Positions 5,309 through 47,540 of a stretch of 64,000 nt of DNA are shown here, piece by piece. Location of the stretch: assembly GCA_963693365.1 (NCBI GenBank), contig CAVNZM010000001.1, positions 21,459,210-21,523,209 on the forward strand. Reading direction: 5' to 3'. The DNA comes from Amoebidium appalachense (Eukaryota > Protista > Ichthyosporea). The notes beneath the pieces were generated by a model that was not told where the DNA came from, did no database searches, and worked only from the letters and a program-made list of their open reading frames with translations. A program made the translations under genes and the position numbers. Each line of letters starts with the position of its first letter. The first letter of the stretch is position 1.

Positions 5309-5739
5309 GTTTGACTATGTGCGTACTGTGCGTACTGCATGTACCGTTGACAGGATGCACGGTTGTGAGACGATGCTACTTCGATTTACAGAGTTTATTA
5401 ACTGCAGTCCAGCACCCTGACTGGTTCGTGGCTCGTGAGCCACTGCCCATAGCAGATCATTCTAATTATCAAGCTCAAGTCTTGGACGATCACCCCGACA
5501 TCAGCAATCTCCCCCCCCCCTCGTAACCCCACCGAAGACCTCGTCGATGGGTTGGAACTGGTTTAGGACTGTCTAATGGATGGGTTTACGCTATATGAAG
5601 GAAAAACCTCCAAACCCGTCGACGACGTCGTAGACCGTCGGGAGAGTGGTTTACGACCCCCTTAGGGATGACCGACAGTATTGGGACAGCCCAATGTATA
5701 ACCCTAACCACACCTATGGATGGGTTTACAGCAACCACA

Positions 5740-7745
5740 ACTTTTGTGGTACTCCTAACCCCATACATTGGATGTACACTGGATGTCGTGCACTCCTCCA
5801 GATTACGACATCATAAGATGGTCTTGCTGCACCCCCTCGAAAGACTCTCTTACGACGTCGGAACAAACTGTCGAATGGATGGGTTTACAATATCCATACG
5901 AATGTCCTCGACAACCATTAGTTGTCGTAAACCCCACCTGTGTACGACATCGTAACATGCTCCTACGACCCCCCACGTGAGACTGTCGCTAGACGTCTGA
6001 AACCCCGCCGCATGGATTGGTTTACAGTATCCATTCGAAGGTCCACGATACACTGTGTATGTCGTAAACACCTACACATTACGACATCGTAAGATGATAT
6101 TATGGTGGTACTCCTAACCCCATACATTGGATGTACACTGTATGTCGTGCACACCTCCGGATTACGACATCATAAGATGGTCTTGCTGCACCCCTAGGAA
6201 GACAGTCCTACGACGTCGGAAAGAACTGTCGAATGGATGGGTTTACAATATCCATAGACAACCATTAGTTGTCGTAATCCCTGCCTATGTACGACATCGT
6301 AACATGCTCTTACGACACCCCACGTGAGACTGTCGCTAGACGTCTGAACCCCCGCCGTATGGATTGGTTTACAGTATCCATTCGAAGGTCCACGATACAC
6401 TGTGTATGTCGTAAACACCTACACATTACGACATCGTAAGATGATATTATGGTGGTACTCCTAACCCCATACATTGGATGTACACTGGATGTCGTGCACA
6501 CCTCCGGATTACGACATCATAAGATGGTCTTGCTGCACCCCTCGGAAGACAGTCCTACGACGTCGGAAAGAACTGTCGAATGGATGGGTTTACAATATCC
6601 ATACGAATGTCCTCGACAACCATTAGTTGTCGTACACCCCACCTGTGTACGACATCGTAACATGCTCTTACGACACCCCACGTGAGACTGTCGCTAGAGA
6701 TCTGAAACCCCGCCGTATGGATTGGTTTACAGTATCCATTCGAAGGTCCACGATACACTGTGTATGTCGTAAACACCTACACATTACGACATCGTAAGAT
6801 GCTATTATGGTGGTACTCCTAACCCCATACATTGGATGTACACTGTATGTCGTGCACACCTCCGGATTACGACATCATAAGATGGTCTTGCTGCACCCCT
6901 CGGAAGCCAGTCCTACGACGTCGGAAAGAACTGTCGAATGGATGGGTTTACAATATCCATACGAATGTCCTCGACAACCATTAGTTGTCGTACACCCCAC
7001 CTGTGTACGACATCGTAACATGCTCTTACGACACCCCACGTGAGACTGTCGCTAGACGTCTGAAACCCCGCCGGATGGATTGGTTTACAGTATCCATATG
7101 AAGGTCCACGATACACTGTGTATGTCGTAAAGACCTGCACATTACGCCATCGTAAGATGATATTATGGTGGTACTCCTAACCCCATACATTGGATGTACA
7201 CTGTATGTCGTGCACGCATCCGGATTACGACATCATTAGATGGTCTTGCTACACCCCCTCGGAACTTGACTGTCTTAAGACATCGGAAACAACTGTCGAA
7301 TGGATGGGTTTACAATATCCATATGAGTGTCCTCGACAACCATTAGTTGTCGTAAACCCCCCCAATATACGACATCGTAACATGCTCTTGCGACACCCAA
7401 CGTGAGACTGTCGCTAGACGTCTGAAACCCCGCCAGATGGATTGGTTTACAGTATCCATTTGAAGGTCCACGATACACTGTGTATGTCGTAAACACCTGC
7501 AAATTACGCCATCGTAAGATGATATTATGGTGGTACTCCTAACCCCATACATTGGATGTACACTGTATGTCGTGCACACCTCCAGATTACGACATCATAA
7601 GATGGTCTTGCTGCACCCCCTCGGAAGACTGTCTTAAGACATCGGAAATAACTGTCGAATGGATGGGTTTACAATATCCATATGAGTGTCCACGACAACC
7701 ATTAGTTGTCGTAAAGACGTCTGAAAACCCCGCCTGATGGATGGG
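5740..7745. repeat. Subterminal tandem array, ~358-bp unit, ~5.5 copies
   Basis: GGTACTCCTAACCCCATACATTGG recurs at ~5748, 6107, 6454, 6812, 7170 and 7532. Units are rich in ACGAC/GTCGT and GGAT(G/T)GGTTTAC. Confidence 0.95.
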
Positions 7746-8315
7746 TTTACCGTATCGATAGGAAGGTCATGGCAGGCCATGTTGAAATCACATAAATTAG
7801 CACTGGTAGTAAAAAACCAAGCTGTGTACATTTTAATTGAACATCTGGAGGGGCTGCTGTATAGCTATATGATACCACTATCATTAGGCAGGTATGTGTA
7901 ATATAGATGTTAATAATTTTCTTGTAAAATTGTAAATAATAACTGGTGGCACGGCCTTCTGGATACATATAACAATGGATGTTTTATGGGGGTTTCGTGG
8001 TAATGCTGGCAACTTGAAAGAGAATACCTAAGAGAACGAATCGGATGCTGACTCGGAGGGGGTACAACAACTAGCAGAGTTTGTGGGTGCCTGGAACGGC
8101 AGGGGATTATAGTAGTGGGATAATTATATTGCGGAAAGCTGAACAGTGTAGGGTATAGACGGCGGTGAACATGCCGGTATGAAGTCCATATGCGTGTACA
8201 TGTATTAAAAGTGAATCAAGAGCGGTGCCAAAAGAACTTATTTAATAAACAAAAAAAACAAAACTGAAGATAATCTGATAGAAAACACCTGACATTTACA
8301 AACCATGCACTCAAT

Positions 8316-9258
8316 TCAAGAGTTACGACCCATGTGCACGTATTTGTTAACGAGGAACTCCTTCCTCCCCCCTACAGGGACCTTCACCGGGATGCAGTGG
8401 AAAATCCCCAATATAGACTCGACGTCAATAACGTCGTACCTCGGTCTTCGCTGCGCATTCGCACCAACCATCTCCCATGTCAGTCGGGGACAACGTGTGT
8501 GTTCGTCCAGATGTCTGCGCTCTGTGTAGTATCGAACGAAGGCACGATTCAGAAGCTTGTCCCCATGCTCTGAAGTGCAGGTGAAGAGAAGCACCACCTT
8601 TGCGTAGAAATGCACCTCATCGCCGTCCTCTTCTTCCCCCGCACCAATAATGACGTCATCGTACCTATCCCGAGCCTTATAGAATGAATCGCATGCAACA
8701 ATCCTAACCCAATGATTGTCGTCAATTCCCACCAACCGTATGTAGCAGCTGTTGTAGGGGGTTATTTTCTTGGACGCGGGGACGGGAAGGGTGTTTCGAT
8801 CAACCCCCCCCTGTTGGACCCCCCCCATGGACAGTTGCAACTGTAGGGGAAGATACTTCAGACATTCCCCACGTTCGGTTGACAAAATCGGGTGAGGGAT
8901 GTAGGACTCGCGTGGGTCAATATTCTTGTCAAGTGCACCGAGCAACATGACGGATTTCGTCTGCGGACCTGACATTATAGATAACTCTTTCAATTTGTCC
9001 AACTGCACATCTTCCGCAACCTCAGGTTCCGGATCGTCCAGGTGCTCGTTGTGTTCCTCTGCCTCGTACAGCTCCTCCGCCAACAAATCCGGGAGCTCGT
9101 CCTCGACAACCACTCGGGGAGCCTTCATCTCTTGCAGTTCCTCCCACAGAGCCCTGCGCAGATCCATGGCGTCGAATCGACGAACTTTGGCTGCAACCTA
9201 AAATGGTGAAGAATTGGAGATGCCAATTAATAAAAGTTTGTGTGTCATTGCCCATTCT

Positions 9259-9319
<61 letters not shown>

Positions 9320-12300
9320 ACACACACACGGCACACACACAAATACACACACACACAAACCCAAACCAAATATATATATATAAATTCTCCATGTTTCAAA
9401 CCCCCCCGGCCCATTACGCCTCCCCAATGTAAACCGGGTACTAATTTATTGCCCCTCCCAAAGTTTGGTTGTGCGTGCTCCCATCAATCCCCTGCACATT
9501 ATTAACTGTTGCCAACCCCCCCTTTCCCCTATGTATTATAGCGCATTTTGGGTAATATGGACGTACAACGGTTAATAAATTTCCCCACAGAAATGGGGAG
9601 ACAGTCCGACCGGTTTTTTTAGACCCCCCACACAGAGACACTGCCTAATGCAAATTTTGGTTGTGCTCCCATCAATCCCCTGCACGTTATTAGCTGTTGA
9701 ATCCCCCCCTTTTCCCTATGTATTATAGCGCATTTTGCCTAATATGGACGTACAACGGTTAGTAACTTTCCCCACAGAAATGGGGAGACAGTCCGACCGG
9801 TTTTTTTAGACCCCCCACACAGAGACACTGCCTAATGCAAAGTGTGGTTGTCCTCCCATCAAACCCCTGCACGTTATTAACTGTTGAATCCCCCCCTTTT
9901 CCCTATGTAATATAGCGCATTTTGCCTAATATGGACGTACAACGGTTAGTAACTTTCCCCACAGAAATGGGGAGACAGTCCGACCGGTTTTGTTACCCCC
10001 TCACACAGAGACACTGCCCTAAAATGCAAAGTTTGGTTGTGCTCCCATCAAACCCCTGCACGTTATTACCTGTTGAATCCCCCCCTTTTCCCCACGTATT
10101 ATAGCGCATTTTGCCTAATATGGACGTACAACGGTTAATAACTTTCCCCACAGAAATGGGGAGACAGTCCGACCGGTTTTGTTAGACCCCCCACACAGAG
10201 ACACTGCCTAATGCAAAGTTTGGTTGTCCTCCCACCAATCCCCTGCACGTTATTAACTGTTGAATCCCCCCCTTTTCCCTATGTAATATAGCGCATTTTG
10301 CCTAATATGGACGTACAACGGTTAGTAACTTTCCCCACAGAAATGGGGAGACAGTCCGACCGGTTTTGTTACCCCCTCACACAGAGACACTGCCCTAAAA
10401 TGCAAAGTTTGGTTGTGCTCCCATCAAACCCCTGCACGTTATTACCTGTTGAATCCCCCCCTTTTCCCCACGTATTATAGCGCATTTTGCCTAATATGGA
10501 CGTACAACGGTTAATAACTTTCCCCACAGAAATGGGGAGACAGTCCGACCGGTTTTGTTAGACCCCCCACACAGAGACACTGCCTAATGCAAAGTTTGGT
10601 TGTCCTCCCACCAATCCCCTGCACGTTATTAACTGTTGAATCCCCCCCTTTTCCCTATGTAATATAGCGCATTTTGCCTAATATGGACGTACAACGGTTA
10701 GTAACTTTCCCCACAGAAATGGGGAGACAGTCCGACCGGTTTTGTTAGCCCCCCACACAGAGACACTGCGCTAAAATGCAAAGTTTGGTTGTGCTCCCAT
10801 CAAACCCCTGCACGTTATTACCTGTTGAATCCCCCCCTTTTCCCCACGTATTATAGCGCATTTTGCCTAATATGGACGTACAACGGTTAATAACGTTCCC
10901 CACAGAAATGGGGAGACAGTCCGACCGGTTTTGTTAGACCCCCCACACAGAGACACTGCCTAATGCAAAGTTTGGTTGTCCTCCCACCAATCCCCTGCAC
11001 GTTATTAACTGTTGAATCCCCCCTTTTCCCTATGTATTATAGCGCATTTTGCCTAATATGGACGTACAACGGTTAGTAACTTTCCCCACAGAAATGGGGA
11101 GACAGTCCAACCGGTTTTGTTAGCCCCCCACACAGAGACACTGCCCTAAAATGCAAATTTTGGTTGTGCTCCCATCAAACCCCTGCACGTTATTACCTGT
11201 TGAATCCCCCCCTTTTCCCCACGTATTATAGCACATTTTGCCTAATATGGACGTGCAACGGTTAATAACTTTCCCCACAGAAATGGGGAGACAGTCCGAC
11301 CGGTTTTGTTAGACCCCCCACACAGAGACACTGCCTAATGCAAAGTTTGGTTGTGCTCCCATCAATCCCCTGCACGTTATTAACTGTTGAATCCCCCCTT
11401 TTTCCCTATGTATTATAGCGCATTTTGCCTAATATGGACGTACAACGGTTAGTAACTTTCCCCACAGAAATGGGGAGACAGTCCGACCGGTTTTGTTACC
11501 CCCTCACACAGAGACACTGCCCTAAAATGCAAAGTTTGGTTGTGCTCCCATCAAACCCCTGCACGTTATTACCTGTTGAATCCCCCCCTTTTCCCCACGT
11601 ATTATAGCGCATTTTGCCTAATATGGACGTACAACGGTTAATAACTTTCCCCACAGAAATGGGGAGACAGTCCGACCGGTTTTGTTAGACCCCCCACACA
11701 GAGACACTGCCTAATGCAAAGTTTGGTTGTCCTCCCACCAATCCCCTGCACGTTATTAACTGTTGAATCCCCCCCTTTTCCCTATGTAATATAGCGCATT
11801 TTGCCTAATATGGACGTACAACGGTTAGTAACTTTCCCCACAGAAATGGGGAGACAGTCCGACCGGTTTTGTTACCCCCTCACACAGAGACACTGCCCTA
11901 AAATGCAAAGTTTGGTTGTGCTCCCATCAAACCCCTGCACGTTATTACCTGTTGAATCCCCCCCTTTTCCCCACGTATTATAGCGCATTTTGCCTAATAT
12001 GGACGTACAACGGTTAATAACTTTCCCCACAGAAATGGGGAGACAGTCCGACCGGTTTTGTTAGACCCCCCACACAGAGACACTGCCTAATGCAAAGTTT
12101 GGTTGTCCTCCCACCAATCCCCTGCACGTTATTAACTGTTGAATCCCCCCCTTTTCCCTATGTATTATAGCGCATTTTGCCTAATATGGACGTACAACGG
12201 TTAGTAACTTTCCCCACAGAAATGGGGAGACAGTCCGACCGGTTTTGTTAGACCCCCCACACAGAGACACTGCCTAATGCAAAGTTTGGTTGTGCTCCCA

Positions 12301-13579
12301 TCAAACCCCTGCACGTTATTAACTGTTGAATCCCCCCTTTTTCCCTATGTATTATAGCGCATTTTGCCTAATATGGACGTACAACGGTTAGTAACTTTCC
12401 CCACAGAAATGGGGAGACAGTCCGACCGGTTTTGTTACCCCCTCACACAGAGACACTGCCCTAAAATGCAAAGTTTGGTTGTGCTCCCATCAAACCCCTG
12501 CACGTTATTACCTGTTGAATCCCCCCCTTTTCCCCACGTATTATAGCGCATTTTGCCTAATATGGACGTACAACGGTTAATAACTTTCCCCACAGAAATG
12601 GGGAGACAGTCCGACCGGTTTTGTTAGACCCCCCACACAGAGACACTGCCTAATGCAAAGTTTGGTTGTGCTCCCATCAAACCCCTGCACGTTATTAACT
12701 GTTGAATCCCCCCCTTTTCCCCACGTATTATAGCGCATTTTGCCTAATATGGACGTGCAACGGTTAATAACTTTCCCCACAGAAATAGGGGGACAATCCG
12801 ACCGGTTTTGTTACATCACCCACACAGAGACACTGCCTAATGGAAAGTTTGATTGGGCCCCCATCAATCCCCTGCACGTTATTAACCGTGCAAATGTATC
12901 CAGCTTGTAGTGTCCACCTTTGAAGGTGGTTCACATGTCTACGGTGTAATAAAGATGTCCAAACATAGTCCATAAGACGCCTTATGTATATCCATGGACC
13001 ATCCCCAAGACTGTAACGATACCATCCATAATACTGTCGTAAAACGATATATTGTTCGGTACAACAGTCGTAGGACGATACATAATATCGTCGACATATG
13101 GACTGCGACATACAAACATGCTCGCAGGATATCGTAGATTTCACCATATTTTGGAGTACTAGTACTCACTTGCAAAATGAATGCAGAGTTCTTGTTGGTC
13201 ATACGATACGGCATCTTGCAGTAGTATTTGTGTGCACGCTCCCAGCTCTCAGCTGACTCCACCGGGCCAAAGAGGCGATAGTCGTCAGAATAATGCACAC
13301 CAGCATGGAATTTCGATGTTTTGAGTTCGTTCTTGGTGGAGTCCTTGAAGCACTCGTACGCAGCTTTGCCGAACCTGCGTTTTTTGTTGGTGATATTACT
13401 TTACAATATAATGCACTAGAGCGGCACGGAGTCCATTACCAAATGGCAAAAGTTCTGCCATCGTTACCTGTAGGATCTATACACCTAGACACGTGCAGGG
13501 GGGCGGGAGGGGGGGGGGGGGGGGGGAGGGGGTCGTAGTGGGAAGGAGGGAAGACAGGGGGGGTTGGGTGTGTGTGTGT

Positions 13580-13613
<34 letters not shown>

Positions 13614-14329
13614 ACACGTACGTTCTGTAACACTCGTTCATCTCGTTGAGTGAGTCCTCGGTGAATTCGTATCCTGTCACCATGCTATACCACTCATTCC
13701 AGGAAACAAACACCCTTGTTGCTTTGCTGTTTGCGGCCGGGTTGTCTGGGATTAGGTTCCGTACGACGACTGGTATGACCTGTGAATATGTAAGGACAAT
13801 ATGGACAATGTGTGTGTGTGTGTGTGTGCATCTTGATGGTTGGTTGAGTGGCTCCCGGGGGGGGGGGGGGGGGGGGGGGGGTGTTGGTCAGATGAAAAGA
13901 AGCAGGAACCCTAGTCAAATAGTATGACCTGTGAGTTTGTAGGTGTGGGTGTGTGGGAGTTTGTAAGGGGAGGGGCTGGGGGTGGGGGGGGGGGGGGGGG
14001 GGGGGTCAGATGAAAAGAAGCAGGAACCCTAGTCAAATAGTATGACCTGTGAGTTTGTAGGTGTGGGTGTGTGGGAGTTTGTAGGGGGAGGGGCTGGGGG
14101 GGGGGGTGTTGGTCAGATGAAAAGAAGCAGGAACCCTAGTCAAATAGTATGACCTGTGAGTTTGTAGGTGTGGGTGTGTGGGAGTTTGTAAGGGGAGGGG
14201 CTGGGGGTGGGGGGGGGGGGGGGGGGTGTTGGTCAGATGAAAAGAAGCAGGAACCCTAGTCAAATAGTATGACCTGTGAGTTTGTAGGTGTGGGTGTGTG
14301 GGAGTTTGTAAGGGGAGGGGCTGGGGGGT

Positions 14330-14365
<36 letters not shown>

Positions 14366-16501
14366 CAGATGAAAAGAAGCAGGAACCCTAGTCAAATAGT
14401 ATGACCTGTGAGTTTGTAGGTGTGGGTGTGTGGGAGTTTGTAGGGGGAGGGGCTGGGGGGGTGTGGGGTGGGGTGGGGGGGGGGGGGGGGGGGGTTGGTC
14501 AGATTAAAAGAAGCAGGAACCCTAGTCAAATAGTATGACCTGTGAGTTTAGGGTGTGGGTGTGTGGGGGTTTGTAGGGGGAGGGGGCTGGGGGGGGGGGG
14601 GGGGGTGGGGGGGGGGGGGGGGAGGGGGGGGGGGGGGGGGGGGGGAGGCACCGCACAAAAACCCTAAAAAAATGATAAATATATTCATACGCGCATCACC
14701 CCTACACCCACCTTCATGATGTCTCTGTATTCATTGGCACGCATGAATGACAGGTCGGATACATTGCCGGTGAAATGTCTCAGGCCACTGTAGCGAGCCA
14801 TCCCATTGAACCGGCTGTCAAATTCCCGAATGATGGCGGCAGCTTCTGAGTCTGCTGCGGCACCCTCACCGTGTGTCTGCTCACACACGTATTTGACGTA
14901 CTGCACGTATTCGATAATCATCTGCTTGAATACGCCGCTGTCTCCCTGGTGCATGCGCTCGGTGGTTACACCCCATATCCACTGGAAGCCAGGGAATCCG
15001 ACGCATGCGTTACCATCGAAATCCGACAAAGAGCTGAACTTCAGCAACTGCGTTGCGGTCGCCTTGTCTCCCTGGTTGCCTTGCCGCAGTTCCGCGACCT
15101 TCGCTCGTATTTTGGTCACGTTGCTCTCGTGGTTGGGTGCATATGTTTCCCAAACCTTGTGCAAGTGCTCACAAGGAACCCGGCACTTATGGCAAGGATA
15201 GGCCGTTGACACGCCCGACCTGCAGGGGGCACACACAGCAGTGCTTGTTAATGCCAATGGCAGCAATGTACATGTCGACGACGTAAAAAAGATGACCAAT
15301 GGATAGTCCGGTTTAGCCCCTATGTACATACATACGACACCCACACGCCGTCCGTCATACGATCCATGGTACGGTCGTAATGTAATCCATAATATAGCTT
15401 GTACGGTCGTAAGACGATGCATAATACCATCGAGGATTACTTTCCGGCATACGAAGATATAAATACGAGAATTAAAGGAGTCCATTACATGCACCATGCC
15501 ACCACGATTGTTTTACTACTTGAACAAACCATGCACATGGGTGCTGTCAAAAGAGAGTACCTTGTACAGGTGACCTTGCGCCCTTCAGGCCAGTCCGTAA
15601 TGTAGTAGGCGACACGTGGGTAGAACTTCCGCCAGCGTTTGTCGCTGCCACAGAAAAACCACCGACCCTCCGCATTTATTTCACGCAGGGGGCCGCCTAC
15701 CACTTGGTCCAGTGCGTGGTGGAACAGTGCAAGTCGAGCCTTTGTCTGTGCCGCCTGTGATATCTTCCCGGTGAACTCGAGCTCAGGTATGTACGCCACG
15801 GGAAGCCTGTCAAGTTGGTATTTAGATTGCGAAACAGGGTTCATGAACTATGCACAACCCTGAAATATTCCCTGCCTCTGTTTGCACAAGCACAGAAACT
15901 GACACGTGCTTATACTCGGCAGTTTTATCTACGCGTGGACACACGTGCGATGGAAATAAACCAGGCTAACCCCCCCCCCCCCCCCCCCCGGTCCATACAC
16001 ACACAGGCACACACACAAACATGTGCAGCTAAGCTGTACACGCACCTAGCCCAGTCTTTGGACCTTACATCGCCCTTGATGTTGCCCAAACTGATGTAGA
16101 TAGGATACGCCTTTTTCCCGGCAAACTGGGTGAGTTGGGTCTGGTCAGAATAAACAATGATGGGCGCAATGACCCCGTCCCCAGGCACGTTAAGGGCATC
16201 TCTGATGATCCAGTCGCCGTCCATGACACTCCTGTACACACGTTTTCCTTCCTGGTTTGTTGGGAACTCAACCTTGTAGCTGATGGCCCCCTCCTCCTGC
16301 AGGGACGGATGCAATAGCATTCGTTGCAGACAGTCGCCCAGTGGCCGCCACATGATTTCCGTTTTCTTCACGCCCGGCAGACGCAGGTCCACCTGCATGC
16401 GAGTGAAATGCTTTTTTTTTTTTTTTTGGGGGGGGGGGGGGGGGGGTTTGGGGGGGTGGGGGGCCGGGGGGGGGTTTGGGTGGGGATGGATGTGGATGTG
16501 G

Positions 16502-16548
<47 letters not shown>

Positions 16549-16570
16549 GGGGTGGGGAGGGGCAAGGGCA

Positions 16571-16616
<46 letters not shown>

Positions 16617-16765
16617 GGGGAGTGTGAGACAGCGTTGGTGACAGATTATTGCCTGCTGGACTCGGAGGCGTATTGGCTGAAGGTGACAGTGGTGTTGTTT
16701 GTGGATTTTATCTATTTATTTGATTTATTTTCTATTTTTTTTATTATTTTTTTTTCCCCTGGGGG

Positions 16766-16798
<33 letters not shown>

Positions 16799-16923
16799 GG
16801 GTTGCACATGTTTGTGTGCATTACAGAACTCGGGCAGGAATGATGGCTCGACTGCTATGTCTAGTGTGTGTGAGTGTGTGTGTGTGTGGGTGAGTGGTGG
16901 TGGTGGTGGTGGTGGTGGTGGTG

Positions 16924-16954
<31 letters not shown>

Positions 16955-31120: not shown

Positions 31121-31166
<46 letters not shown>

Positions 31167-34852: not shown

Positions 34853-34904
<52 letters not shown>

Positions 34905-36034: not shown

Positions 36035-36461
36035 ATGTTCCAGGTTGCCCCTGTCAATGCCGCCGACCCCGACAAGTTGGCAGACCAGGTTAGGTGCCGC
36101 AAGAAGACGTGGGAGGGGTGGCTGGTGGAGGTTCAAGTTGAGTGCAACAACCATCCCTGTGGCCACATGTATAGCGTCGATCCGGTGAGGGGCAACCCAT
36201 GGGGCAACTCCGCCCTTCACCGCATCATGTGCATGTCCCCCATCAACGGCTCCTACATCAAGAACCGCCTCAGCAGCTTCAAGACACTAAACGTTTGTGC
36301 CCATCTCCCCCCCCCCCCCCCCCCCCCCCCCCCCACACACACACACCACACCCCAATCAAAGACGAAGTCTTCTCATGCTGCTTTTTTTAACATGCTTAT
36401 TCATGTTTAATGTTGTTGTTCTTCCTTATTGGTTCATTCTTAATGCACTGTGACCCCCCCC

Positions 36462-36492
<31 letters not shown>

Positions 36493-38165: not shown

Positions 38166-38906
38166 AATGAGGAGGAATAGGGAAAGACCCCCCCCCCCCC
38201 CCGGAGGAAAAAAAAAAAAGAATTAATACTTAGTTTATGTCTCTTTTCAAGTGTAGTCCCGGCCTCTGCAGGGGGGAGATAGGGAGATAGGGGGGACATG
38301 TAGACTTCGTATTTTATTTGTGTGATGATGTTTGTTTTGTTTTGTTTGTTGGTTTGTTGGTTTGTTTAGTTTGTTCGGTGAAAGCTGGACTCCTGTGGAG
38401 TCTAACAGAGTGAAATGGTCTCTACTCCTGTGGCGTGAGACTTAGAAATTTTTTAACATGAACAACTTGTGCGGTCTCTGCTCCAGTGGAGCGAGACATA
38501 AAGGAACAACAGTCTTAATGGTATCTCGTGTACAAATTGTGAAAAAGTTAGAAAGGTAAGAAGGAAGGGGGGGGGGGGGGGGGGGGGAGGGGGGCACAAC
38601 GGTGGTGGTTACTTTTCGTATTATGATATTACGACAGCTCGTAATCGTATATTACGACATTCCGTAATATTGTATTTAGTTAGTCATGGTATACTCGTAA
38701 CATATTATTTGGCTATGCATAGGATATCTTATGGATGGACAAAGAGCTGTCGTAATGATGTATACACGACATGCTATGTATATACATACGAGTGGTGTAC
38801 GGGCTCTTATGGAAATGTCTACGACGGTTTTATGGGGGTCGTAATGTACCCCAGGACCAGCCATATGTATATCACCACACCACTCCGTAGAAACACAATA
38901 ACAACC

Positions 38907-39881
38907 ATGCCGAAACTTTCGGTTGATACAGTACTGGCAGAACTTGCCCTCGTTAAGAAACAGCTAAATGAGCTGTTACCACTCAAGAACATGATAGAAA
39001 AACTCCAAACAGAAAATACCCAACTCAAGCTCACCATTGATTCACTCACAGCCCAGCTAAACATTAGTGGATCGCAAAACCCCAAAACTCATGAGCAAAC
39101 ATCTCGCGACGGAGACATTTCCACCCCAACACAAAACAACACAGGACCGGAAGCACAGCTCCCGGCAGAGTTCCTAGAATATGCGAACTCTCGTAAAACA
39201 CCCGAGCTCCGCCAAATTGCCAAGGAAACATATGCCAGCATTCTTGCAGGCAACGAGTACCGCCGCAACTCCCCTCCCAAACCGCCGGCTAAGGGGAACA
39301 CCCAAGCAAACGGTAACATCAACATCCCACCCAAATACGAGAGGGTGTATTTCAAAGTCAAGCACGGCAGACGCCCACACAGGGCCATGTGGTCCATCTT
39401 CAAGGCTCTCGGCTTCCGGTGCTCTCGCATCCTTTGTCTGTCCTTCATTGGATACGATGTGCTGGAAGTAGCAGTACGGGGCGACTATAACCGTGCGTTC
39501 ATCCGTGACGCGACAAAGGGGTGTGGAAGCTTCTTCACCCACCTCCCAAGCTACGACCCATGCGCGCCGGAAAACATTCAGAAAGCAGACAAAGAACGTA
39601 AAGTGTCTGCTAAGAATGCGTGCGCCACACGTTGTCGTGTACGCATCAGCAAGGCAAAAGAGTTCCTCGCAAAGTTGGAAAACGATGCTACGAGCGTGAT
39701 AGACACGGACACGAAGGAACCAATGTTTTCTGGTGAGAAACTGCTCGAGCGCAAACGCCGATGCGAGATGGAAATCGAGCTCTTCTGCGAACTGTTCGCG
39801 CTGGCGGAAGGTCGTGCATACGACCCCGTAAGCGACAAGTGGGAACCAACCCCACAGGTGTCGGACCAAACCGATGCCTAA
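38907..39881 (+). CDS. LINE family-2 ORF1 (324 aa, starts MPKLSVD)
   Basis: First ATG inside the TSD-defined element; N-terminal coiled coil; overlaps ORF2 by 8 nt (ATGCCTAA). Confidence 0.88.
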   Translation: MPKLSVDTVLAELALVKKQLNELLPLKNMIEKLQTENTQLKLTIDSLTAQLNISGSQNPKTHEQTSRDGDISTPTQNNTGPEAQLPAEFLEYANSRKTPELRQIAKETYASILAGNEYRRNSPPKPPAKGNTQANGNINIPPKYERVYFKVKHGRRPHRAMWSIFKALGFRCSRILCLSFIGYDVLEVAVRGDYNRAFIRDATKGCGSFFTHLPSYDPCAPENIQKADKERKVSAKNACATRCRVRISKAKEFLAKLENDATSVIDTDTKEPMFSGEKLLERKRRCEMEIELFCELFALAEGRAYDPVSDKWEPTPQVSDQTDA

Positions 39882-42800
39882 TTTATCCTTCTTCTTCTGG
39901 AATGCTCGGACACTGGGCCCCCAAAAGGGCCTCCCCCCCGGGACACTCGACGATAAAATCAGCTACATACAACAACAGACAAACAACCACACGTTTACAG
40001 TGATTTGCGAAACACAGTTTAAAAACCACCACAAATTCAACTCTACATTGGTCGACACATCCACACACCCCGGTTACGCGAAAAACCGAGGCATTATTGT
40101 ACTTGCCGCACCACACGTGAGAGTGAAGTGCAAACCGGTAGCAAAAACGGAATTCTCGGTTTCTATAGAGTTTCTTTCTAATGTTTTTACTTTTGTATAT
40201 TACCCACCATCTATGTCGGTTGTCGAATTGACTCACGAGTTGTCACAGTTACCAATGTCCACTGTTATTTTAGGTGATTTTAACACGCGACTCCACCACA
40301 CAGACACACTGCAAGTGAGTGTCGGGTACCCATCTAAGCCCCCGGAGCGTGCTATCCCTTTAGCAAGGTATGTCCAAAGTCACACTTTGCGGTTCCCTCA
40401 AATATCCCATGCCCACAACACCGACTGGGGAGTGGCCTTTTGGCCATCAACCATGTCAAAACTCTCTCTCCCTCCTAACCTCTCTAGGTCATCTGACCAC
40501 TCTCCTATCCTTTTCCTACCTAAGATCTCCCTTGATCTGCTCCCCCCTCCCCCTCCCACCTTTCGCCTCCGTCTATCCCAGCTTAAGTCACAGTGGGGTA
40601 GAGTTGATGTATGTGTATGCTATGCTACGAAACACCCTATATATATGCGCCTATTAGAATCTGCACAAGCCAGGCCAGATTCACATCTCGTACTAGATAC
40701 ATGCACTAACTTTATTGTTGATGATTTGATAGATCTCGGTGATTATGCTGGCGGTGGTAGGAAGGAATACCCCGATGCTCTCTTGTTACCAAACACCACT
40801 CCCGCTAGACTAGGTGAACCCCTGTCTCAAAAGGAAAGCTTGCGCCGGCTTGCTAGTATGAATCGATTTGGCCCCCCTGCTCGTATTATTGGTGATACCA
40901 CTGGAGACCCCCTCATAGACTCTGATAAGTATTTCTCGGAACTGTTTAAAGATAGGACCCCCGCTCAGAAACCTATTGTGTGGCCTGTAGACCCATCTAT
41001 CCCCATAGAAACGATCCTCCCCTTTTTCAGTCCCGATGCCATATGGTCTGTGATATCTAGTTATAGCTCTAGTAAGTCTTGTGGACCTGATGGACTCCCT
41101 GCTGGGTTTCTTAAAATCCTTGTTCCCTCCTACCCACAAAAGGAAAGTGATCGTGCTATTAAACCTGATCTTACTATCATGTTAAGCTCTCTCTTTTCTT
41201 GGTGTGTTAAATGTGGACATGTCCCGTCATCTTGGTTAGATACCTTAGTGATCCCCATAGTTAAGAAGGACTCTGAGGGCCCCATATCATCCTTTCGCCC
41301 CATTACACTAACCCAGGTTGTTCGTAGATTCTTTGAAGCTTGCTTACTTAGGTTATTTGCACATCACCCTAGGTTTCAATCTATTCTTCACATACACCCA
41401 TGCCAATCCGCTTTTCGTAAAAACAATTCATGTTATGTTCAAATAATGGCACTGCACGATTCTATGCAAGTTGGTGCACAATATGTTGGCTTTATTGATT
41501 GGAAAACTGCTTACGATTCTGTCTCCCCTGGTCTCCTATGGGAAAAGCTTGCTGCACGGGGTGTACCACACTGCATTGGTGTTCTGTTAGAAGCACTCTT
41601 GTCTCAAACCTATGGTAGAGCTGTGGTTAATGGGCATCTTTCATATGGTTTTGCTCGTACTAGAGGTCTCTTGCAGGGTTCATTGCTTAGCCCCTTTTTG
41701 TTTAACCTATTTATAGATGATTTGGCTGTCAAGATTTACGCCGAAAACGATGACCCTATTAATAACTTTCCGCCTGCACTTCTCTATGCTGATGATCTGT
41801 CCCTCCTTGCCCGTACCCCTAGACGCCTGCAAAGATTGTTCGATGTAGTGTCAGAGTGGTGCAAGGCAAACCTTATGATCCTTAACATAGACAAATGTGG
41901 TGTTCTTGTACCTGATATAGCTAACAATTTACACACATTTACATTATCATCTAAACCTGTACCTATAGTTCCAGAATACAAATATCTTGGTGTTCCGGTT
42001 GATTCTGTTGGTGTTATGTTTCCCCATATGGTCGAAAAGAGGGTAGAGTTGGCTCGTAAGCGGTTAGCTTTCTTCTCGGCTAATATTTTTAAAGACACAC
42101 CCCTCCATCCTTCTATTAGACTTACATTTATTCGCACTTTTGTCTTCCCGGCATGTGAATATGGTTTACCCCTTCTCGCCGCTTGGATCAAGAAAGAGAG
42201 AACTAGAGCGCTTAAACCCTTGGCAAATTTCCTTGAAGCAGAAGTTGCCTCCTTTCTATCTAACAACTGTTGTAAACCTGGGCCTGTAACGCTCTCGATA
42301 TATGGTCTGGTCCCAATAGCTGCTAGAGTATCCTATCTCGCGCTGAAATTCAATAAGCACATAAGCCGCTTAAAGAAGTATTTGCCCTCCCACCCTCTCT
42401 TCTCTATCCGACCTGTCCCCTCCTCACCTCTCCCCTCTTTCCTCCCCTCTCTCTCCCCTTCTCCCCTGGGCACAAATACAAATAAACCCCGCAATAGTGT
42501 GTGTGTGACTTTGGACTGCCACTTACTTATTAAACATGTACACAATCACAAGATAATCACGCAATATAACAAATGGAAAAAGATACCACACGACACTAGA
42601 CCCGATGAAAGCATACACCTTGAAAAACTAAGCCTTATGTCTCGTTTTATATATACTGACCGCCTCAACCATATTGCCAAATATGGCACTCGCAAGTGTA
42701 TAACACCTAAATACATATTACCTTCCTGTAGAACTGGTCTTTCTCTAGCTGATGGTATTATTGATCAATTACCACGCTTTTACTGTACACGTGCTATACA

Positions 42801-43068
42801 GTGGAGATCTAATAAGTATAAGGTGGCATCATTTGCATGCCCAAACAACACACACACACACCAGTTTAACCGGTCATGTATCGCCAAATGTAGTTTGATA
42901 GACCACATAATACCGCAACACACACACGTCACATTCACAACAGACACCCAGAAAGATAGCCTACCTGTAAATTACAACATCCTTGATTTTATACTAAACA
43001 CGCGTAACTACGACCTGTTTATTAGATGTATTGATTGGCTTGAGAAACACATCACTACAAAATTATAG
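39874..43068 (+). CDS. LINE family-2 ORF2: AP endonuclease + RT (1064 aa)
   Basis: WNART, CETQ, LGDFN, SDHSP; GPDGLP, FRPITL, FIDWKTAYD, GLLQGSLLSPFLFN, LYADD, YKYLG. Confidence 0.96.
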   Translation: MPNLSFFFWNARTLGPQKGLPPGTLDDKISYIQQQTNNHTFTVICETQFKNHHKFNSTLVDTSTHPGYAKNRGIIVLAAPHVRVKCKPVAKTEFSVSIEFLSNVFTFVYYPPSMSVVELTHELSQLPMSTVILGDFNTRLHHTDTLQVSVGYPSKPPERAIPLARYVQSHTLRFPQISHAHNTDWGVAFWPSTMSKLSLPPNLSRSSDHSPILFLPKISLDLLPPPPPTFRLRLSQLKSQWGRVDVCVCYATKHPIYMRLLESAQARPDSHLVLDTCTNFIVDDLIDLGDYAGGGRKEYPDALLLPNTTPARLGEPLSQKESLRRLASMNRFGPPARIIGDTTGDPLIDSDKYFSELFKDRTPAQKPIVWPVDPSIPIETILPFFSPDAIWSVISSYSSSKSCGPDGLPAGFLKILVPSYPQKESDRAIKPDLTIMLSSLFSWCVKCGHVPSSWLDTLVIPIVKKDSEGPISSFRPITLTQVVRRFFEACLLRLFAHHPRFQSILHIHPCQSAFRKNNSCYVQIMALHDSMQVGAQYVGFIDWKTAYDSVSPGLLWEKLAARGVPHCIGVLLEALLSQTYGRAVVNGHLSYGFARTRGLLQGSLLSPFLFNLFIDDLAVKIYAENDDPINNFPPALLYADDLSLLARTPRRLQRLFDVVSEWCKANLMILNIDKCGVLVPDIANNLHTFTLSSKPVPIVPEYKYLGVPVDSVGVMFPHMVEKRVELARKRLAFFSANIFKDTPLHPSIRLTFIRTFVFPACEYGLPLLAAWIKKERTRALKPLANFLEAEVASFLSNNCCKPGPVTLSIYGLVPIAARVSYLALKFNKHISRLKKYLPSHPLFSIRPVPSSPLPSFLPSLSPSPLGTNTNKPRNSVCVTLDCHLLIKHVHNHKIITQYNKWKKIPHDTRPDESIHLEKLSLMSRFIYTDRLNHIAKYGTRKCITPKYILPSCRTGLSLADGIIDQLPRFYCTRAIQWRSNKYKVASFACPNNTHTHQFNRSCIAKCSLIDHIIPQHTHVTFTTDTQKDSLPVNYNILDFILNTRNYDLFIRCIDWLEKHITTKL

Positions 43069-43092
43069 CGCACGCGCACACACACACACAAA

Positions 43093-43141
<49 letters not shown>

Positions 43142-43205
43142 CCAGCTGATACCGAGTGTCCCGAGGGAAGCCCCTTTAAAAAAATTAAAATTAAAATTAA
43201 AAAAA

Positions 43206-43245
<40 letters not shown>

Positions 43246-43664
43246 GGGGAACCCCAACTAATTGATTTCTCCTTGTAGTCTTTATGGTGTCTCGTAGAGA
43301 AAGTAAACCCTGATATATAGTCACCACCCGACATCTATGTACGTGATCATGATATACCGCTGAGGGGATATTCCGAGCAAAACCCCCCCCCCCATACCTG
43401 AGACTGGTTCTCTTTGCCTCGAGTAAACAGCGTAAACCCCCATATGTATATCATATGTATATGGTTGGTAATTCGTAAAATACATCGATGTATATCATAT
43501 GTCATGGGTTACGATGGTATTAAGCCGCTCCTAAACATATACTTAAGATATCCAACGGGATGGGTTTGGATACTCGGATGGTGAAGATTACGATGGGTTT
43601 CCGACCCCTCGTAACGCTCTCGTATGTATGTTCTATGTATAGTCGTATGTATATACATAGGTTA

Positions 43665-43830
43665 TACATTGGATATACATTGGTTATCCTATGTATAGTG
43701 CAATGTATATACATTGGATATCTTATGTACAGTGCAATGTATATACATTGGATATCCTATGCATAGTGCAATGTATATACATTGGATATCCAATGTATAG
43801 TGCAATGTATATACATTGGATATACATAGG
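43665..43830. repeat. 34-bp tandem repeat (~4.5 copies) in the right subterminal region of copy B
   Basis: GTGCAATGTATATACATTGGATAT at ~43698, 43732, 43766 and 43800. Confidence 0.9.
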
Positions 43831-44091
43831 ATATACATATGACATACGCTTTACGACATCCATAAACCCTATGGATGTCGTAAAGAGGGTTGATGGATGT
43901 CGTAAAGCGTATATCCAATGTATATACATAAGACGGTCCGTTAACCCCATGGAACTCTTTACACTATCGTAAAGAGGTCGTGCAACCACTCCATATGAAC
44001 TCGCGGTGTGCTTTACGATGGGTGACAGGTTTACGCCATCGAGGATGGCATTACGAGGGGTATACGATCCCCGGTGGAGATTGCTGATGGC

Positions 44092-45210
44092 AGAGATGCG
44101 CGCAGCCCTGAAGGCACTGGGCATCATCTTCCAAGAGGTCGGCAAGGGTAAGACGCCCAAGGCCAAACAACCCCGGGCTCAGGAGTCCGAGGATTCTGAC
44201 GACGGGCCCAGGAGGCTTAAGAGGGCGGAAACCGTGATGAAGCTGGTACGTAACATAGTTTTGCTTACCCCCTCCAGTTCTAGAGAGGACCCACAGAGAG
44301 TATTCCGGACACTACGATATGTGAAGTATGCGATTGTGTAGATGTCCGCGTTGCATGTACTAGATCATTATTACGAAATTCATTTGCGTAACAAGTAAGA
44401 CCATATCAAGTATGACACCTGCACAAAATATGGGGACTTCTATCAGTAATGTGCCAGCACATGTGTCGATGAGGGATATGGTGTGGTTCCTGCTTTCAAG
44501 CCTCTAACAGCATTCAGGACTCTAACCCATTTTTCTTTTGTCTGCCTCTGCAGTACGACCACAGCAAAGGGATGTCCAAGTCCCACGTCGTTTTTCAAAA
44601 TATGACGCTGTACTTCCCATTCAGCAACACAAACAAGACGGATAACGAGCCCGTCATCAGAGCGTGGCTTGCGAGTGTGAAGGCCACCAACCGCGCCCTC
44701 TACAACATCCTCCACCCAGAGGGGATCGAGGATTGGGTTCAGGAGCTCAGCAACCCCGCAAAAAACACGGACGCCCAGAACCGTGTCACCATCATCCGCA
44801 ACGGCCTGAATTCGTGCAAGTCCGAGGTCAATCGAGGGATGCACAGCTCAATGAGGGCCTTCTCCTTGGCTGAGTCCAACCTGGATGTAAGTCAAAGTGT
44901 GCACGGTTCACCTCTTATTTTGTTTTCCTGCATGATTAAACGATTAGTTACTATTTCTATGCTGTGATTGGAATACAACAGCAACCTCGGGTCCCTCTTC
45001 AATGTATTATTACATGCGCATGTTTTCTTAATTTTTGTGCTTTTGTTTTTCAGCACAACGTGTTTCACATGTTAGCATTCAGTGTTATTCATTCATTCTA
45101 ACACCCCCCCCCCCCCCCCCCCCCCCCCCCCAAACACACACACACACACACTCGCTCACTTCCCCACCCACACATACCAAAAATCACACGCACACCAAAA
45201 GCCCCTCCCA

Positions 45211-45241
<31 letters not shown>

Positions 45242-45548
45242 TTTTCCAAAAACTGTCAAATGCCTCCATGCCCACCAACACAGATGTTCCAGGTTGCCCC
45301 TGTCAATGCCGCCGACCCCGACAAGTTGGCAGACCAGGTTAGGTACCGCAAGAAGACGTGGGAGGGGTGGTTGGTGGAGGTTGAGTGCAACAACCATCCC
45401 TGTGGCCGCATGTACAGCGTCGATCCGGTGACGGGCAACCCATGGGGCAACCCCGCCCTTCACCGCATCATGTGCATGTCCCCCATCAACGGCTCCTACA
45501 TCAAGAACCGCCTCAGCAGCTTCAAGACACTAAACGTTAGTGCCCATT

Positions 45549-45593
<45 letters not shown>

Positions 45594-46858
45594 ACGCACC
45601 ACACACACCACACCCCAATCAAAGACGAAATCTTCTCATGCTGCTTTTTTTAATATGCTTGTTCAGGTTTAATGTTGTTGTTCTTCCTTATTGGTTCATT
45701 CTTAATGCACCAGTGTGACCCCCCCCCCCCCCCCCCCCCCCCCAACACACACACACACCACACCCCAATCAAAGACGAAATCTTCTCATGCTGCTTTTTT
45801 AACATGCTTATTAATGTTTAATGTTGTTGTTCTTCCTTAATGGTTCATTCTTAATGCACTGTGACCCCCCCCCCCCCCCCCTCCCCCCCCCACAGACACA
45901 CACTCCCACTCCCTCCACTCCCTCCCTCCCACCTCCCCCTGTTGTCCCACGTACGAATCACCAACACATAACCACACAAGACATCAAATCCTTATCACTC
46001 AGAGCAACGGTACATGCATGGTTATCCAGTATCCATTCAGCTTCCCACTTCCTCAAGTCATTTCAGATTTTTCATTGTCGTATTCGGTTTTATTTGCTGC
46101 TAATGGAGAATACCCCCTTTCCTCATCACCACATACACACATGATTACGTGTACGTACACGCAACACACACACCAACACCCACACAGGAGTTTCAAAAGG
46201 CTTTGCCCGAGCTCTTCAGCTTCATGCTCCACACATTTGAGTGCGGACTGCGGGATCCAATGGCCCACAAGTCTGCCACTCAGATTTCGTGGTCAGCTGT
46301 GAAGTATGGAGCTGACATGCCTGACTACGAGGGTGGTGCTCGGCCATCAGAGATCAGCAAGGTATACAACTACCCCCCCCCCCCCCCCCCCCCTTGCGTC
46401 CTCCCTGAGGATGGGCTCTGCTTATGACGCATACTGTGCACATGGCTGATGTTGCGTGCTTGAATGTTTGCCTTTGCATGTGTCCTGCACCATGCTTCTC
46501 ATCGTGTATGCGTATTTCGTACCGTGTTCTGCATTCAAACCCCCCCCCCCCCCCCATCATTGTGTTTTAGCTCCCGTCCGAAAGACAACGTATGGATATC
46601 GAAATGATGATATTTATAAGTCGTATGTATGGGTTACGTATCATCGTAGTTTTTTAGGATATCTCCTAAGCATGGGCAAGTATCATCCTATCATGTCATC
46701 TTTAGGTTTGGTATGGTAACATTGTGATAGCATTTTTCCCAGGTACATACATGCTCAGGCTAGCCAGAAAAGTTAAAAACACTCACACAATCTCCTTCTG
46801 TCCCAACCCAGTATGCAAAGACCTGGGAAAAGATCTGCAAGGTCCGGGAGAAGGCAGT
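44092..46858 (+). CDS. 3' part of copy A's JmjC gene: exons 44092-44245, 44554-44886, 45284-45535, 46188-46361, 46812-46858 (last exon truncated by a deletion)
   Basis: In-frame continuation of exon 21306-21362. All subsequent GT-AG junctions are phase 0 and open. At 46858 the sequence jumps to the equivalent of 43881. Confidence 0.8.
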
Positions 46859-47540
46859 AAAGAGGGTTGATGGATGTCGTAAAGCGTATATCCAATGTAT
46901 ATACATAAGACGGTCCGTTAACCCCATGGAACTCTTTACACTATCGTAAAGAGGTCGTGCAACCACTCCATATGAACTCGCGGTGTGCTTTACGATGGGT
47001 GACAGGTTTACGCCATCGGAGATGGCATTACGAGGGGTATACGATCCCCGGTGGAGATTGCTGATGGACACCCCGACAATCAACGGTTACCCCCCCCCCC
47101 CCCCCCCCCCCCCCTGGAATGATGAAGAAAGCATAAAAAAAAATTGCCTTGGCCGTCGGTGCGTGTAACAAACTGTTCGAGGTCGCTGTACTCCACAAAC
47201 ACAGTGGAATAGAGTGTTTCCTCGAGGCACTCATCACGCTCGTCGTGTGTCCAGAAAAGTTCTTGAACTGAAACCACCCTGGCATGGAACCAACGACGCA
47301 CACTTGCACGGCCACCAGGTGGTCTGGTTCCGTGTCCTGTGCAGTAACGGTGGCCCAGTCTGGCGAGACCGTGACAGTGGCAGTCCAACTCCTTGGTTTC
47401 GACATCAACATGTTTGCGGTAGTACGTGCAGCATAAACTAATCAGATCGAGCGAGGGTGACTGCGCTTTGACGTTCGCGTATTACGTCATGGTTATTTGT
47501 ACACCACACATGGCCCACCCGCCCACGACCCACCCGCGCT

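What the first reader, a model, noticed from the sequence alone, without database searches (positions are those of the whole stretch)
5499..47066. Giant Plavaka transposon carrying its own KDM4-like histone demethylase: candidate self-anti-silencing system
Seen: TIRs and TSD enclose a spliced Plavaka transposase and a divergently transcribed JmjC gene. Copy B carries the 3' exons of the same gene next to its right end, so the gene is a stable part of the family and not a bystander. The JmjC domain keeps the Fe ligands (H-V-E...H), the 2OG lysine (GYKAW) and the KDM4-type Zn ligands (C..H...CxC). Known: KDM4 enzymes remove H3K9me3/H3K36me3, and fungal Plavaka/KDZ elements are linked to TET/JBP dioxygenases. 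Inference: this element may erase repressive chromatin on itself. Novelty needs a literature check, since giant Plavaka repeats and mobile JmjC genes may already be reported in some protists.
Basis: partly seen in the sequence, partly recalled or inferred. Interest (0 to 1): 0.92.

Follow-up and report, generated by a model that had tools for sequence, protein, structure and literature searches.

The report
Plavaka transposon carrying KDM4-like demethylase gene
A jumping gene in the single-celled animal relative Amoebidium carries, head-to-head with its cutting enzyme, a gene shaped like a histone demethylase that would likely help it resist silencing, although this copy is split by a second, demethylase-free copy and no enzyme activity has been shown.

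Summary
Real, but not one 41.6-kb element. It is two nested PlavakaB transposons in Amoebidium. Copy A (5499-47066, 18.8 kb net, 14-bp TIRs, 2-bp TSD) holds a modelled DDE transposase and, head-to-head, a 313-aa KDM4-type JmjC exon (predicted fold Z 26 to KDM4A; Fe, Zn and most 2OG ligands kept). Copy B (21363-44089) has jumped into a downstream exon of that gene and has neither the JmjC domain nor the transposase core, so it does not prove the cargo is stable. Its exons are spliced and transcribed from B's own first exon, without JmjC. Better support comes from public runs: JmjC and transposase sit on one contig at equal depth, and two diverged JmjC variants match two diverged transposases in depth (linkage not shown). 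Listed differences in one variant are mostly third-position (21 of 29). Anti-silencing is inferred only. Chromatin cargo in Plavaka (TET, SET, 2OG oxygenase) and KDM4-like genes in Amoebidium giant-virus insertions are published; I found no paper with KDM4-like cargo inside a TIR-bounded Plavaka. This scan earlier noted JmjC-carrying Plavaka in Psilocybe (KDM2/7 type, unchecked). New variant of a known kind.

The parts
5499..47066 (.). Copy A, PlavakaB-type DNA transposon, 18,839 bp once copy B is removed; 14-bp TIRs starting CATCA, 2-bp TSD GA
   Evidence: termini and TSD length as described for PlavakaB in PMC12730594
5746..7715 (.). Left subterminal array, 358-bp unit x5.5 (two ~179-bp halves 72% alike)
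8316..18186 (-). Plavaka transposase gene, model of 9 exons (18186-17671, 17222-17063, 16860-16808 uncertain, 16392-16046, 15806-15561, 15219-14712, 13779-13622, 13374-13170, 9197-8316), about 1024 aa; D, D, C(2)C, H(3)H and E motifs present
   Evidence: Pfam PF18759; splice model (model only, no spliced RNA seen)
9475..12886 (.). 187/189-bp tandem array (about 18 copies) in the last transposase intron
18187..19392 (.). 1.2-kb head-to-head spacer, likely bidirectional promoter; six CCAAT/ATTGG boxes; holds a Lys-rich ORF (18945-19283) that may be a first exon
   Evidence: bridged with both genes by one contig in X1 and in X3
19393..20331 (+). KDM4-type JmjC exon, 313 aa, covering the whole catalytic core (KDM4A residues 22-327 in the structural alignment)
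20569..20603 (+). Modelled exon downstream of JmjC
   Evidence: model
21306..21362 (+). 5' half of the exon split by copy B
   Evidence: uninterrupted form inferred from a 432-nt contig
21363..44089 (.). Copy B, non-autonomous derivative of the same family (shared parts 97-99.7% identical to A), TSD GC; lacks transposase core and JmjC
24793..29457 (-). LINE (ORF1, endonuclease-RT ORF2) inserted in B's copy of the 187-bp array
29787..35791 (.). Segment found only in B: CA-rich tract, 183-bp array x19 (31213-34705), CCAAT boxes and a first exon ending at 35510
36035..38165 (+). ORF-X exons in B (36035-36292, 36776-36949, 37625-); matches transcriptome protein P0159 from the Met at 36035
38890..43245 (+). 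Second LINE inside B's right subterminal region (5' limit approximate)
44092..44886 (+). 3' half of the split exon (44092-44245) and next modelled exon (44554-44886)
   Evidence: model
45284..46858 (+). ORF-X exons in A (45284-45535, 46188-46361, 46812-46858); last exon cut by a deletion that leaves 211 bp of the right end
   Evidence: intron 46362-46811 seen spliced in RNA contigs

Best explanation
Copy A is a PlavakaB cut-and-paste transposon of Amoebidium that carries a KDM4-type JmjC gene head-to-head with its transposase, likely as a selected accessory gene predicted to remove repressive H3K9 (or H3K36) methylation and so keep the element transcribable. Shown: ends, TSDs, nesting, domain and residue content, linkage on one contig. 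Inferred steps: the shared 1.2-kb promoter co-expresses both genes; the Fe/2OG core demethylates histone tails as KDM4 does; the C-terminal exons, or the separately expressed ORF-X product, would give targeting to the element's repeat arrays; JmjC-free derivatives such as B are mobilised in trans and outnumber the full elements. The copy in this window is decaying: B splits the gene after the intact catalytic core.
For: TIR/TSD-bounded and recently mobile: B inserted into an open exon, and removing B plus one 2-bp TSD restores the frame; a 432-nt contig of the same depth lies on both sides of B's site in X1 and X3, so an empty-site form is inferred. Transposase exon 1, spacer and JmjC lie on single contigs with 0 differences in X1 (2483 nt) and X3 (2887 nt), at the same depth as the transposase core (51.5 vs 51; 143.6 vs 118); X8, another study, tiles the block with few differences. 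Two diverged JmjC variants have depths close to two diverged transposase variants (X1 461-538 vs 453, and 45 vs 52; X3 597 vs 657, and 185 vs 142). In the deeper variant 21 of 29 listed differences are at codon position 3 (binomial p 2e-5), 17 of 25 codons are synonymous, and the K188 and H257 codons change silently. RNA run X15 holds contigs of that JmjC variant and of that transposase variant; X15 is shown to be RNA by a GT-AG joint that is not listed for the DNA runs. Model pLDDT 91, Z 26.4, rmsd 3.4 over 280 residues to KDM4A; KDM4 chains rank above KDM5 and KDM6. Precedent: Plavaka elements carry TET/JBP in fungi and SET/2OG-oxygenase genes in red algae.
Against: No activity, substrate or chromatin data. 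The gene at this locus is interrupted and 3'-truncated. Most family members appear to lack JmjC: left-end depth is about 19-27 times, and B-type depth about 10-15 times, the JmjC depth (contig depth is only a rough guide), so JmjC in cis is not needed to spread. The diverged JmjC and transposase variants are matched by depth only, no contig links them, and Amoebidium has many KDM4-like genes in giant-virus insertions (52 insertions) that could be their source. The 29 differences are 29 of 45, from an alignment limited to 80% identity. X1 and X3 are identical over 2.5 kb and may be one strain, possibly the window's own source. The published silencing mark in this organism is 5mC, which KDM4 does not remove. 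Identity to KDM4A is only about 22%, the Asn198 position is Ser, Pfam JmjN is not detected, and no PHD/Tudor reader is present.
Confidence: 0.5

Rival explanations
1. Passive capture: one Plavaka copy picked up a KDM4-like gene from a giant-virus insertion or a host paralogue, and it rides along without benefit. The constrained, transcribed paralogues are viral or host genes, not element cargo.
For: KDM4-like JmjC-only genes are abundant in this genus's viral insertions and a couple lie among host genes. The window's own JmjC is at the lowest depth class and is broken at this locus. No contig links the diverged JmjC to the diverged transposase. B-type copies thrive without it.
Against: Tidy head-to-head layout on a 1.2-kb spacer; JmjC depth equals transposase depth in three variant classes in two runs; near-identical uninterrupted downstream exons at about twice that depth; all metal ligands kept although only 35-41% identical to the nearest relatives.
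Confidence: 0.3
2. The JmjC gene is a selected accessory gene but does not act on the element's own histone marks: it acts in trans and unspecifically (loosening host heterochromatin, opening target sites, promoting breaks) or modifies a non-histone substrate such as the transposase.
For: No reader domain or recognised DNA-binding domain; low identity to KDM4A and changes at positions 155, 179, 181 and 268; PMC11244446 proposes a break-promoting role for viral KDM4-likes; derivatives without JmjC are the more numerous.
Against: Methyl-lysine pocket positions (G150, Y157, E173, N271) and D114 are kept; every one of the 50 entries listed in the structural re-alignment is a KDM4 chain; cis-acting anti-silencers are known in plant VANDAL elements (mention).
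Confidence: 0.15
3. Sub-question, gene structure: ORF-X (the last three exons) is a separate Plavaka accessory gene with its own promoter, and copy A has lost that promoter by a deletion that joins it behind the JmjC gene. The 663-aa JmjC fusion would then be an accident of this copy, not the family's product.
For: RNA contig in X16 splices B's exon ending at 35510 onto the exon that begins with ATG; transcriptome protein P0159 starts at that Met; A and B become homologous only from inside that intron; weak ESM Atlas likeness to DUF6532 (0.94, but 151 shared features and recognition 1553, below the tool's thresholds).
Against: The fused model is open with canonical splice sites over 663 codons; other copies follow A's sequence to 45023, ten bases short of the junction; Pfam gives P0159 no hit at E 10.
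Confidence: 0.55
4. Assembly artefact or remnant of an endogenous giant virus rather than a transposon cargo.
For: Repeat-rich window with long homopolymers and arrays; JmjC genes mark 39% of viral insertions in this genus.
Against: Two independent TIR pairs each with its own matching TSD; transposase-JmjC block bridged by short-read contigs; no viral-marker or tyrosine-recombinase family in 93 translated stretches scanned.
Confidence: 0.05

Closest known systems
PlavakaB DNA transposons, including TET/JBP-carrying families of Agaricus bisporus (PMC12730594; passages and part 4 of the text read)
   Same: CATCA..TGATG termini, 2-bp TSD, C(2)C and H(3)H motifs, a 2OG/Fe dioxygenase as cargo, proposed escape from silencing (untested there too).
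   Different: Cargo here is a KDM4-type histone demethylase fold, not a DNA-modifying TET/JBP; host is an ichthyosporean; the term JmjC does not occur in that paper's main text.
KDM4-like JmjC-only genes of Amoebidium giant-virus insertions (PMC11244446; passages, sections 6 and 9, supplement legends read)
   Same: Same genus, KDM4-type domain without PHD/Tudor, multi-exon, anti-silencing role proposed.
   Different: Reported in viral insertions and at a couple of host-like loci, not inside a TIR/TSD-bounded transposon. Whether this gene falls in their clade could not be tested (their sequences were not retrieved).
Plavaka-associated giant repeats of Amoebidium (PMC11244446, fig. S4C legend only; figure not visible)
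   Same: Same genus, Plavaka transposase, example of 42 kb.
   Different: Described as clusters of intron-poor genes, many tyrosine recombinases; here the genes are intron-rich, no recombinase family was found in 93 stretches, and the length comes from nesting. I cannot exclude that this family was counted among them.
Giant Plavaka families of Bostrychia moritziana with PAG1-3 (bioRxiv 10.1101/2025.02.11.637652; passages and section 8 read)
   Same: 17-19 kb size, accessory chromatin-type genes, tandem arrays, proposed self-modification.
   Different: Cargo is N6A-methylase/SET and ParB-like plus 2OG oxygenase, not a KDM4-type JmjC.
Human KDM4A-E / yeast Rph1 histone demethylases (PDB matches)
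   Same: Whole catalytic core superposes (Z 26.4, 280 residues); Fe triad, 2OG Tyr/Lys, Cys3His zinc site.
   Different: About 22% identity, Asn198-equivalent is Ser, degenerate JmjN, no PHD/Tudor; activity unknown.
VANDAL/VANC anti-silencing transposons of plants (one-sentence mention; otherwise recalled)
   Same: Concept of a DNA transposon carrying its own anti-silencing factor and repeat arrays.
   Different: VANC is shown to act and is not a JmjC enzyme; here nothing is shown functionally.

Membership tests
PlavakaB (CMCT clade) | Plavaka transposase domain | tested here: met
   PF18759 74 and 38 bits, cut-off 26.3
PlavakaB (CMCT clade) | Termini CATCA..TGATG | tested here: met
   both copies (definition)
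PlavakaB (CMCT clade) | 2-3 bp TSD | tested here: met
   GA for A, GC for B
PlavakaB (CMCT clade) | C(2)C and H(3-4)H between second D and final E | tested here: met
   read from the splice model; assignment of the catalytic D, D, E is by recalled motif
PlavakaB (CMCT clade) | Phylogenetic placement with PlavakaB rather than PlavakaA or EnSpm | not tested
   no reference transposases were fetched
KDM4/JMJD2 demethylases | JmjC domain with H-x-E...H iron triad | tested here: met
   H171, E173, H257
KDM4/JMJD2 demethylases | Cys3His zinc site | tested here: met
   C214, H220, C287, C289; all three Cys in 113 of 122 aligned relatives
KDM4/JMJD2 demethylases | 2OG contacts Tyr132, Asn198, Lys206 (numbering recalled) | tested here: inconclusive
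   Y111 and K188 kept, Asn replaced by Ser181 (also in 19 of 122 relatives)
KDM4/JMJD2 demethylases | JmjN domain | tested here: inconclusive
   no Pfam JmjN hit, but model residues from 1 align to KDM4A from residue 22
KDM4/JMJD2 demethylases | Closer to KDM4 than to KDM5/KDM6 | tested here: met
   profile E 1e-20 to 1e-26 for KDM4/Rph1 chains, 1e-13 to 1e-16 for animal KDM5, 1e-3 for KDM6; plant JMJ14 (4e-21) overlaps the KDM4 range
Canonical full-length KDM4 | PHD and Tudor reader domains | tested here: not met
   no hit in any modelled exon; so KDM4-like, not a canonical orthologue
KDM4/JMJD2 demethylases | Demethylation of H3K9me2/3 or H3K36me2/3 | not testable with these tools
   needs enzyme assay
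Amoebidium GEVE KDM4-like clade (PMC11244446) | Groups with the published viral-insertion KDM4-likes | not testable with these tools
   no labelled member retrieved; quick tree only pairs it with unnamed P0002 (SH-aLRT 92)
Amoebidium GEVE (giant-virus insertion) | Viral hallmark genes around the JmjC gene | tested here: not met
   none among 93 translated stretches in Pfam; not all 147 listed ORFs were scanned
Transposon-encoded anti-silencing system (VANC-like) | Cargo protein binds its own element and removes repressive marks there | not testable with these tools
   needs ChIP and perturbation

The most novel reading that the evidence does not exclude
Several Amoebidium Plavaka subfamilies encode an active histone H3K9/K36 demethylase, exchanged with the endogenised giant viruses of the same genome, that is co-expressed with the transposase and targeted to the element's own arrays: a DNA transposon that enzymatically erases host heterochromatin on itself, convergent with a different JmjC captured by mushroom Plavaka.
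Probability: 0.25. Interest if true: 0.87.

Novelty: new variant of a known kind. Interest (0 to 1): 0.62.

Why it matters
No transposon-borne histone demethylase turned up in my ten paper searches. If the cargo works, it adds a histone-level eraser to the DNA-level (TET/JBP) and binding-protein (VANC) counter-defences. Amoebidium grows axenically and has a mapped methylome and drug-induced reactivation (PMC11244446), so the idea is directly testable. It also offers a carrier that could move KDM4-like genes between host, giant viruses and transposons, a direction that paper left open, and may account for KDM4-like loci found outside viral insertions.

Tried and rejected
No whole genome is held, so copies could not be collected. 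Word-seeded protein searches found no relative of the JmjC exon and only P0002 with a 3-sequence profile. Viral contigs: no relative of JmjC or P0159; the transposase exon gave one confirmed stretch but no locus. Metagenome contigs: one distant 2.3-kb locus, L001 (31%), not analysed further. Single-sequence AlphaFold failed (pLDDT 31). No RNA holder was listed for 17600-20335, and no RNA contig covered the window-identical JmjC exon or exons 44092-44886; this blank is not used as evidence. No RNA joint linking JmjC to downstream exons was listed. An 8-bp TSD reading was rejected: the octamer in the right flank is offset by 2 nt from the terminus. Five donor/acceptor pairs for the Lys-rich ORF were tried and all gave stops; an in-phase acceptor at 19442 exists by arithmetic but was not run. 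BFVD fold search gave only weak cupin/JmjC matches (TM 0.44 or less). The tree (122 of 150 hits, 28 very long, short or repetitive rows left out) is the quick version, unrooted and lacks labelled host KDM4, so it gives no donor. P0159: no Pfam or PDB match. CpG depletion is not informative across the element (o/e 0.54-1.06). Iyer et al. 2014 is not held: I saw nothing of it and it may mention JmjC beside Plavaka/KDZ transposases. Figures S4C and S6C of PMC11244446 and the Bostrychia supplements could not be seen and may bear on novelty. No complex prediction was run.

Full report
Anatomy. Self-comparison and a motif scan show two left ends (5499, 21363) and two right ends (44089, 47066) with the same 14-bp inverted repeat. 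The outer pair is flanked by GA, the inner pair by GC; for the outer pair only a 2-bp duplication fits among lengths 1-10. Termini and TSD length match the PlavakaB definition in PMC12730594 (passages). The 41,568-bp span is therefore copy A (18,839 bp) with copy B (22,727 bp) inside it. B contains two LINEs (RT hits). Shared parts of A and B differ by 0.3-2.7%, so both are young members of one family.

Host. The only relative of the exon at 36035 among 12 scored candidates is an EukProt protein labelled Amoebidium parasiticum, 99% identical. The host genus is thus Amoebidium.

Transposase. PF18759 hits two minus-strand exons. A GT-AG model from 16392 to 8316 is open for 781 codons and holds the D, D, C(2)C, H(3)H and E motifs. 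Three further 5' exons bring it to about 1024 aa, one of them on a weak donor. This is a model; no spliced RNA of it was seen. A may be autonomous. B keeps only the end of the last exon and scraps of introns.

JmjC. One exon (19393-20331, 313 aa) starts 1.2 kb from the transposase ATG on the other strand. Best solved relatives are KDM4 chains by sequence. With an alignment of 122 of the 150 listed hits the model reached pLDDT 91 and superposes on KDM4A residues 22-327 with Z 26.4 and rmsd 3.4. The iron triad, Y111, D114, G150, Y157, K188, K221, N271 and the four zinc ligands are kept; the Asn198-equivalent is Ser (KDM4A numbering recalled). Nearest relatives are unnamed and only 35-41% identical. 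No PHD or Tudor domain was found.

State of the gene here. A splice model continues the frame through six more exons to 663 aa without a stop, provided B and one TSD are removed; of ten rejoining offsets only 2, 5 and 8 stay open, and only 2 is a duplication. With B in place the frame stops about 20 codons into B, after the intact core. The last exon is cut by a deletion at 46858. A 432-nt contig with depth 108.8 (X1) and 317.7 (X3) ends at B's left junction and aligns from 44089 at its position 149, from which I infer uninterrupted copies elsewhere.

B lacks JmjC. In RNA runs X15 and X16 (one sample) the intron 46362-46811 is spliced, and the loose end of an X16 contig at the first ORF-X acceptor is identical to 35479-35508, a B-only exon followed by a GT donor. 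P0159 begins at the Met that opens the next exon. So these exons are expressed as a JmjC-free transcript. Whether ORF-X is the tail of the JmjC gene or a separate accessory gene fused in A by deletion is open (about 55% separate). Its Atlas likeness to fungal DUF6532 is weak and Pfam is silent; unchecked scan notes list DUF6532-like genes in fungal Plavaka elements.

Is JmjC a family cargo? Eleven runs of four studies hold the stretch or part of it, eight with half its words or more. One contig bridges transposase exon 1 and JmjC with no differences in X1 and X3, at transposase depth; X8 tiles the block with few differences. X1 and X3 may be one strain and one may be the window's source. Both also hold two diverged JmjC variants and two diverged transposase variants with matching depths (about 9x and 1x in X1, 4x and 1x in X3, relative to the window-type contig), though other pieces of the deeper transposase in X1 are only about 5x. 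The tool warns that depth is not copy number, and no contig links the variants. The deeper JmjC variant shows 21 of 29 listed differences (of 45) at third positions, 17 of 25 codons synonymous. X15 holds contigs of this variant and of the matching transposase variant; neither crosses a splice joint, so DNA carry-over is not excluded. Left ends are about 19-27x and B-type sequence about 10-15x, so JmjC-free derivatives appear to dominate.

Mechanism. Most likely the autonomous elements co-express transposase and a KDM4-type eraser from one spacer, lowering H3K9 or H3K36 methylation on or near themselves, while B-type derivatives hitch-hike. Everything after the fold is inference from KDM4 biochemistry (established knowledge) and from parallels. 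Against it: the silencing mark demonstrated in this organism is 5mC (sections 6 and 9 of PMC11244446), no targeting domain is recognised, and this copy is broken.

Literature. Searches: Plavaka+JmjC (one work), Plavaka+transpos (16 listed), transposon-encoded+histone demethylase+anti-silencing, Amoebidium+KDM4 (one work), JmjC+cargo terms (none), JmjC/transposase/KDM4 (30 of 69 listed), Plavaka+histone+accessory gene (20 of 825 listed), Amoebidium+H3K9me3, JmjC+EnSpm, DUF6532. PMC11244446 reports Plavaka giant repeats with tyrosine recombinases and, separately, KDM4-like genes in 39% of viral insertions with an anti-silencing hypothesis; the passages, two sections and supplement legends I read do not join the two. 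PMC12730594 covers TET cargo; the Bostrychia preprint covers SET and 2OG-oxygenase cargo. PMC12344493 and PMC11512509 (passages) add nothing on JmjC. Iyer et al. 2014 was not available. The scan's own unchecked notes describe an 18-kb Psilocybe Plavaka with a KDM2/7-type JmjC, and none on this genome or sequence.

Verdict. A real PlavakaB element with a KDM4-like cargo gene, a combination I did not find in print but close to three published patterns. New variant of a known kind; interest 0.62.

Noticed in passing
window 35300-38165 (and 45284-46858): B-type non-autonomous copies express a spliced, JmjC-free 173-aa-or-longer protein (P0159) at very high RNA contig depth; it has a C-x4-C-x19-H-x3-C spacing that recalls a zinc finger (recalled likeness, untested) and a weak DUF6532 signal.
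   Followed up: partly
window 48480-52217: A LINE 99% identical to the one inside B, inverted, carries about 190 nt of B's right subterminal flank beyond its poly-A and ends in an 18-bp tandem repeat: either target-site preference for Plavaka ends or DNA-level copying.
   Followed up: no
window 46390-46546 (and 36980-37130): A roughly 150-bp sequence in an ORF-X intron has very high genome-wide contig depth with many flanks, a likely SINE- or MITE-like repeat.
   Followed up: no
window 53858-60562, 61003-61984, 63318-64000: Copia-type LTR retrotransposon with 98% identical LTRs and a frameshift between integrase and RT frames, plus two further LTRs of a 75%-related type.
   Followed up: no
window 4385-5314 (minus): Single 309-codon open frame just outside A's left end with no Pfam match.
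   Followed up: no
window 18945-19283: Lys/Gly-rich ORF with a GT donor at 19231 upstream of the JmjC exon; possible first exon with nuclear-localisation character.
   Followed up: partly
window 37127-37568: Perfect 224-bp tandem duplication inside a B intron, absent from A.
   Followed up: no
proteins P0004, P0020, P0034, P0051, P0057, P0061, P0093, P0116: Thrips genomes hold many divergent KDM4-like JmjC proteins on long branches; they may also be element-borne.
   Followed up: no
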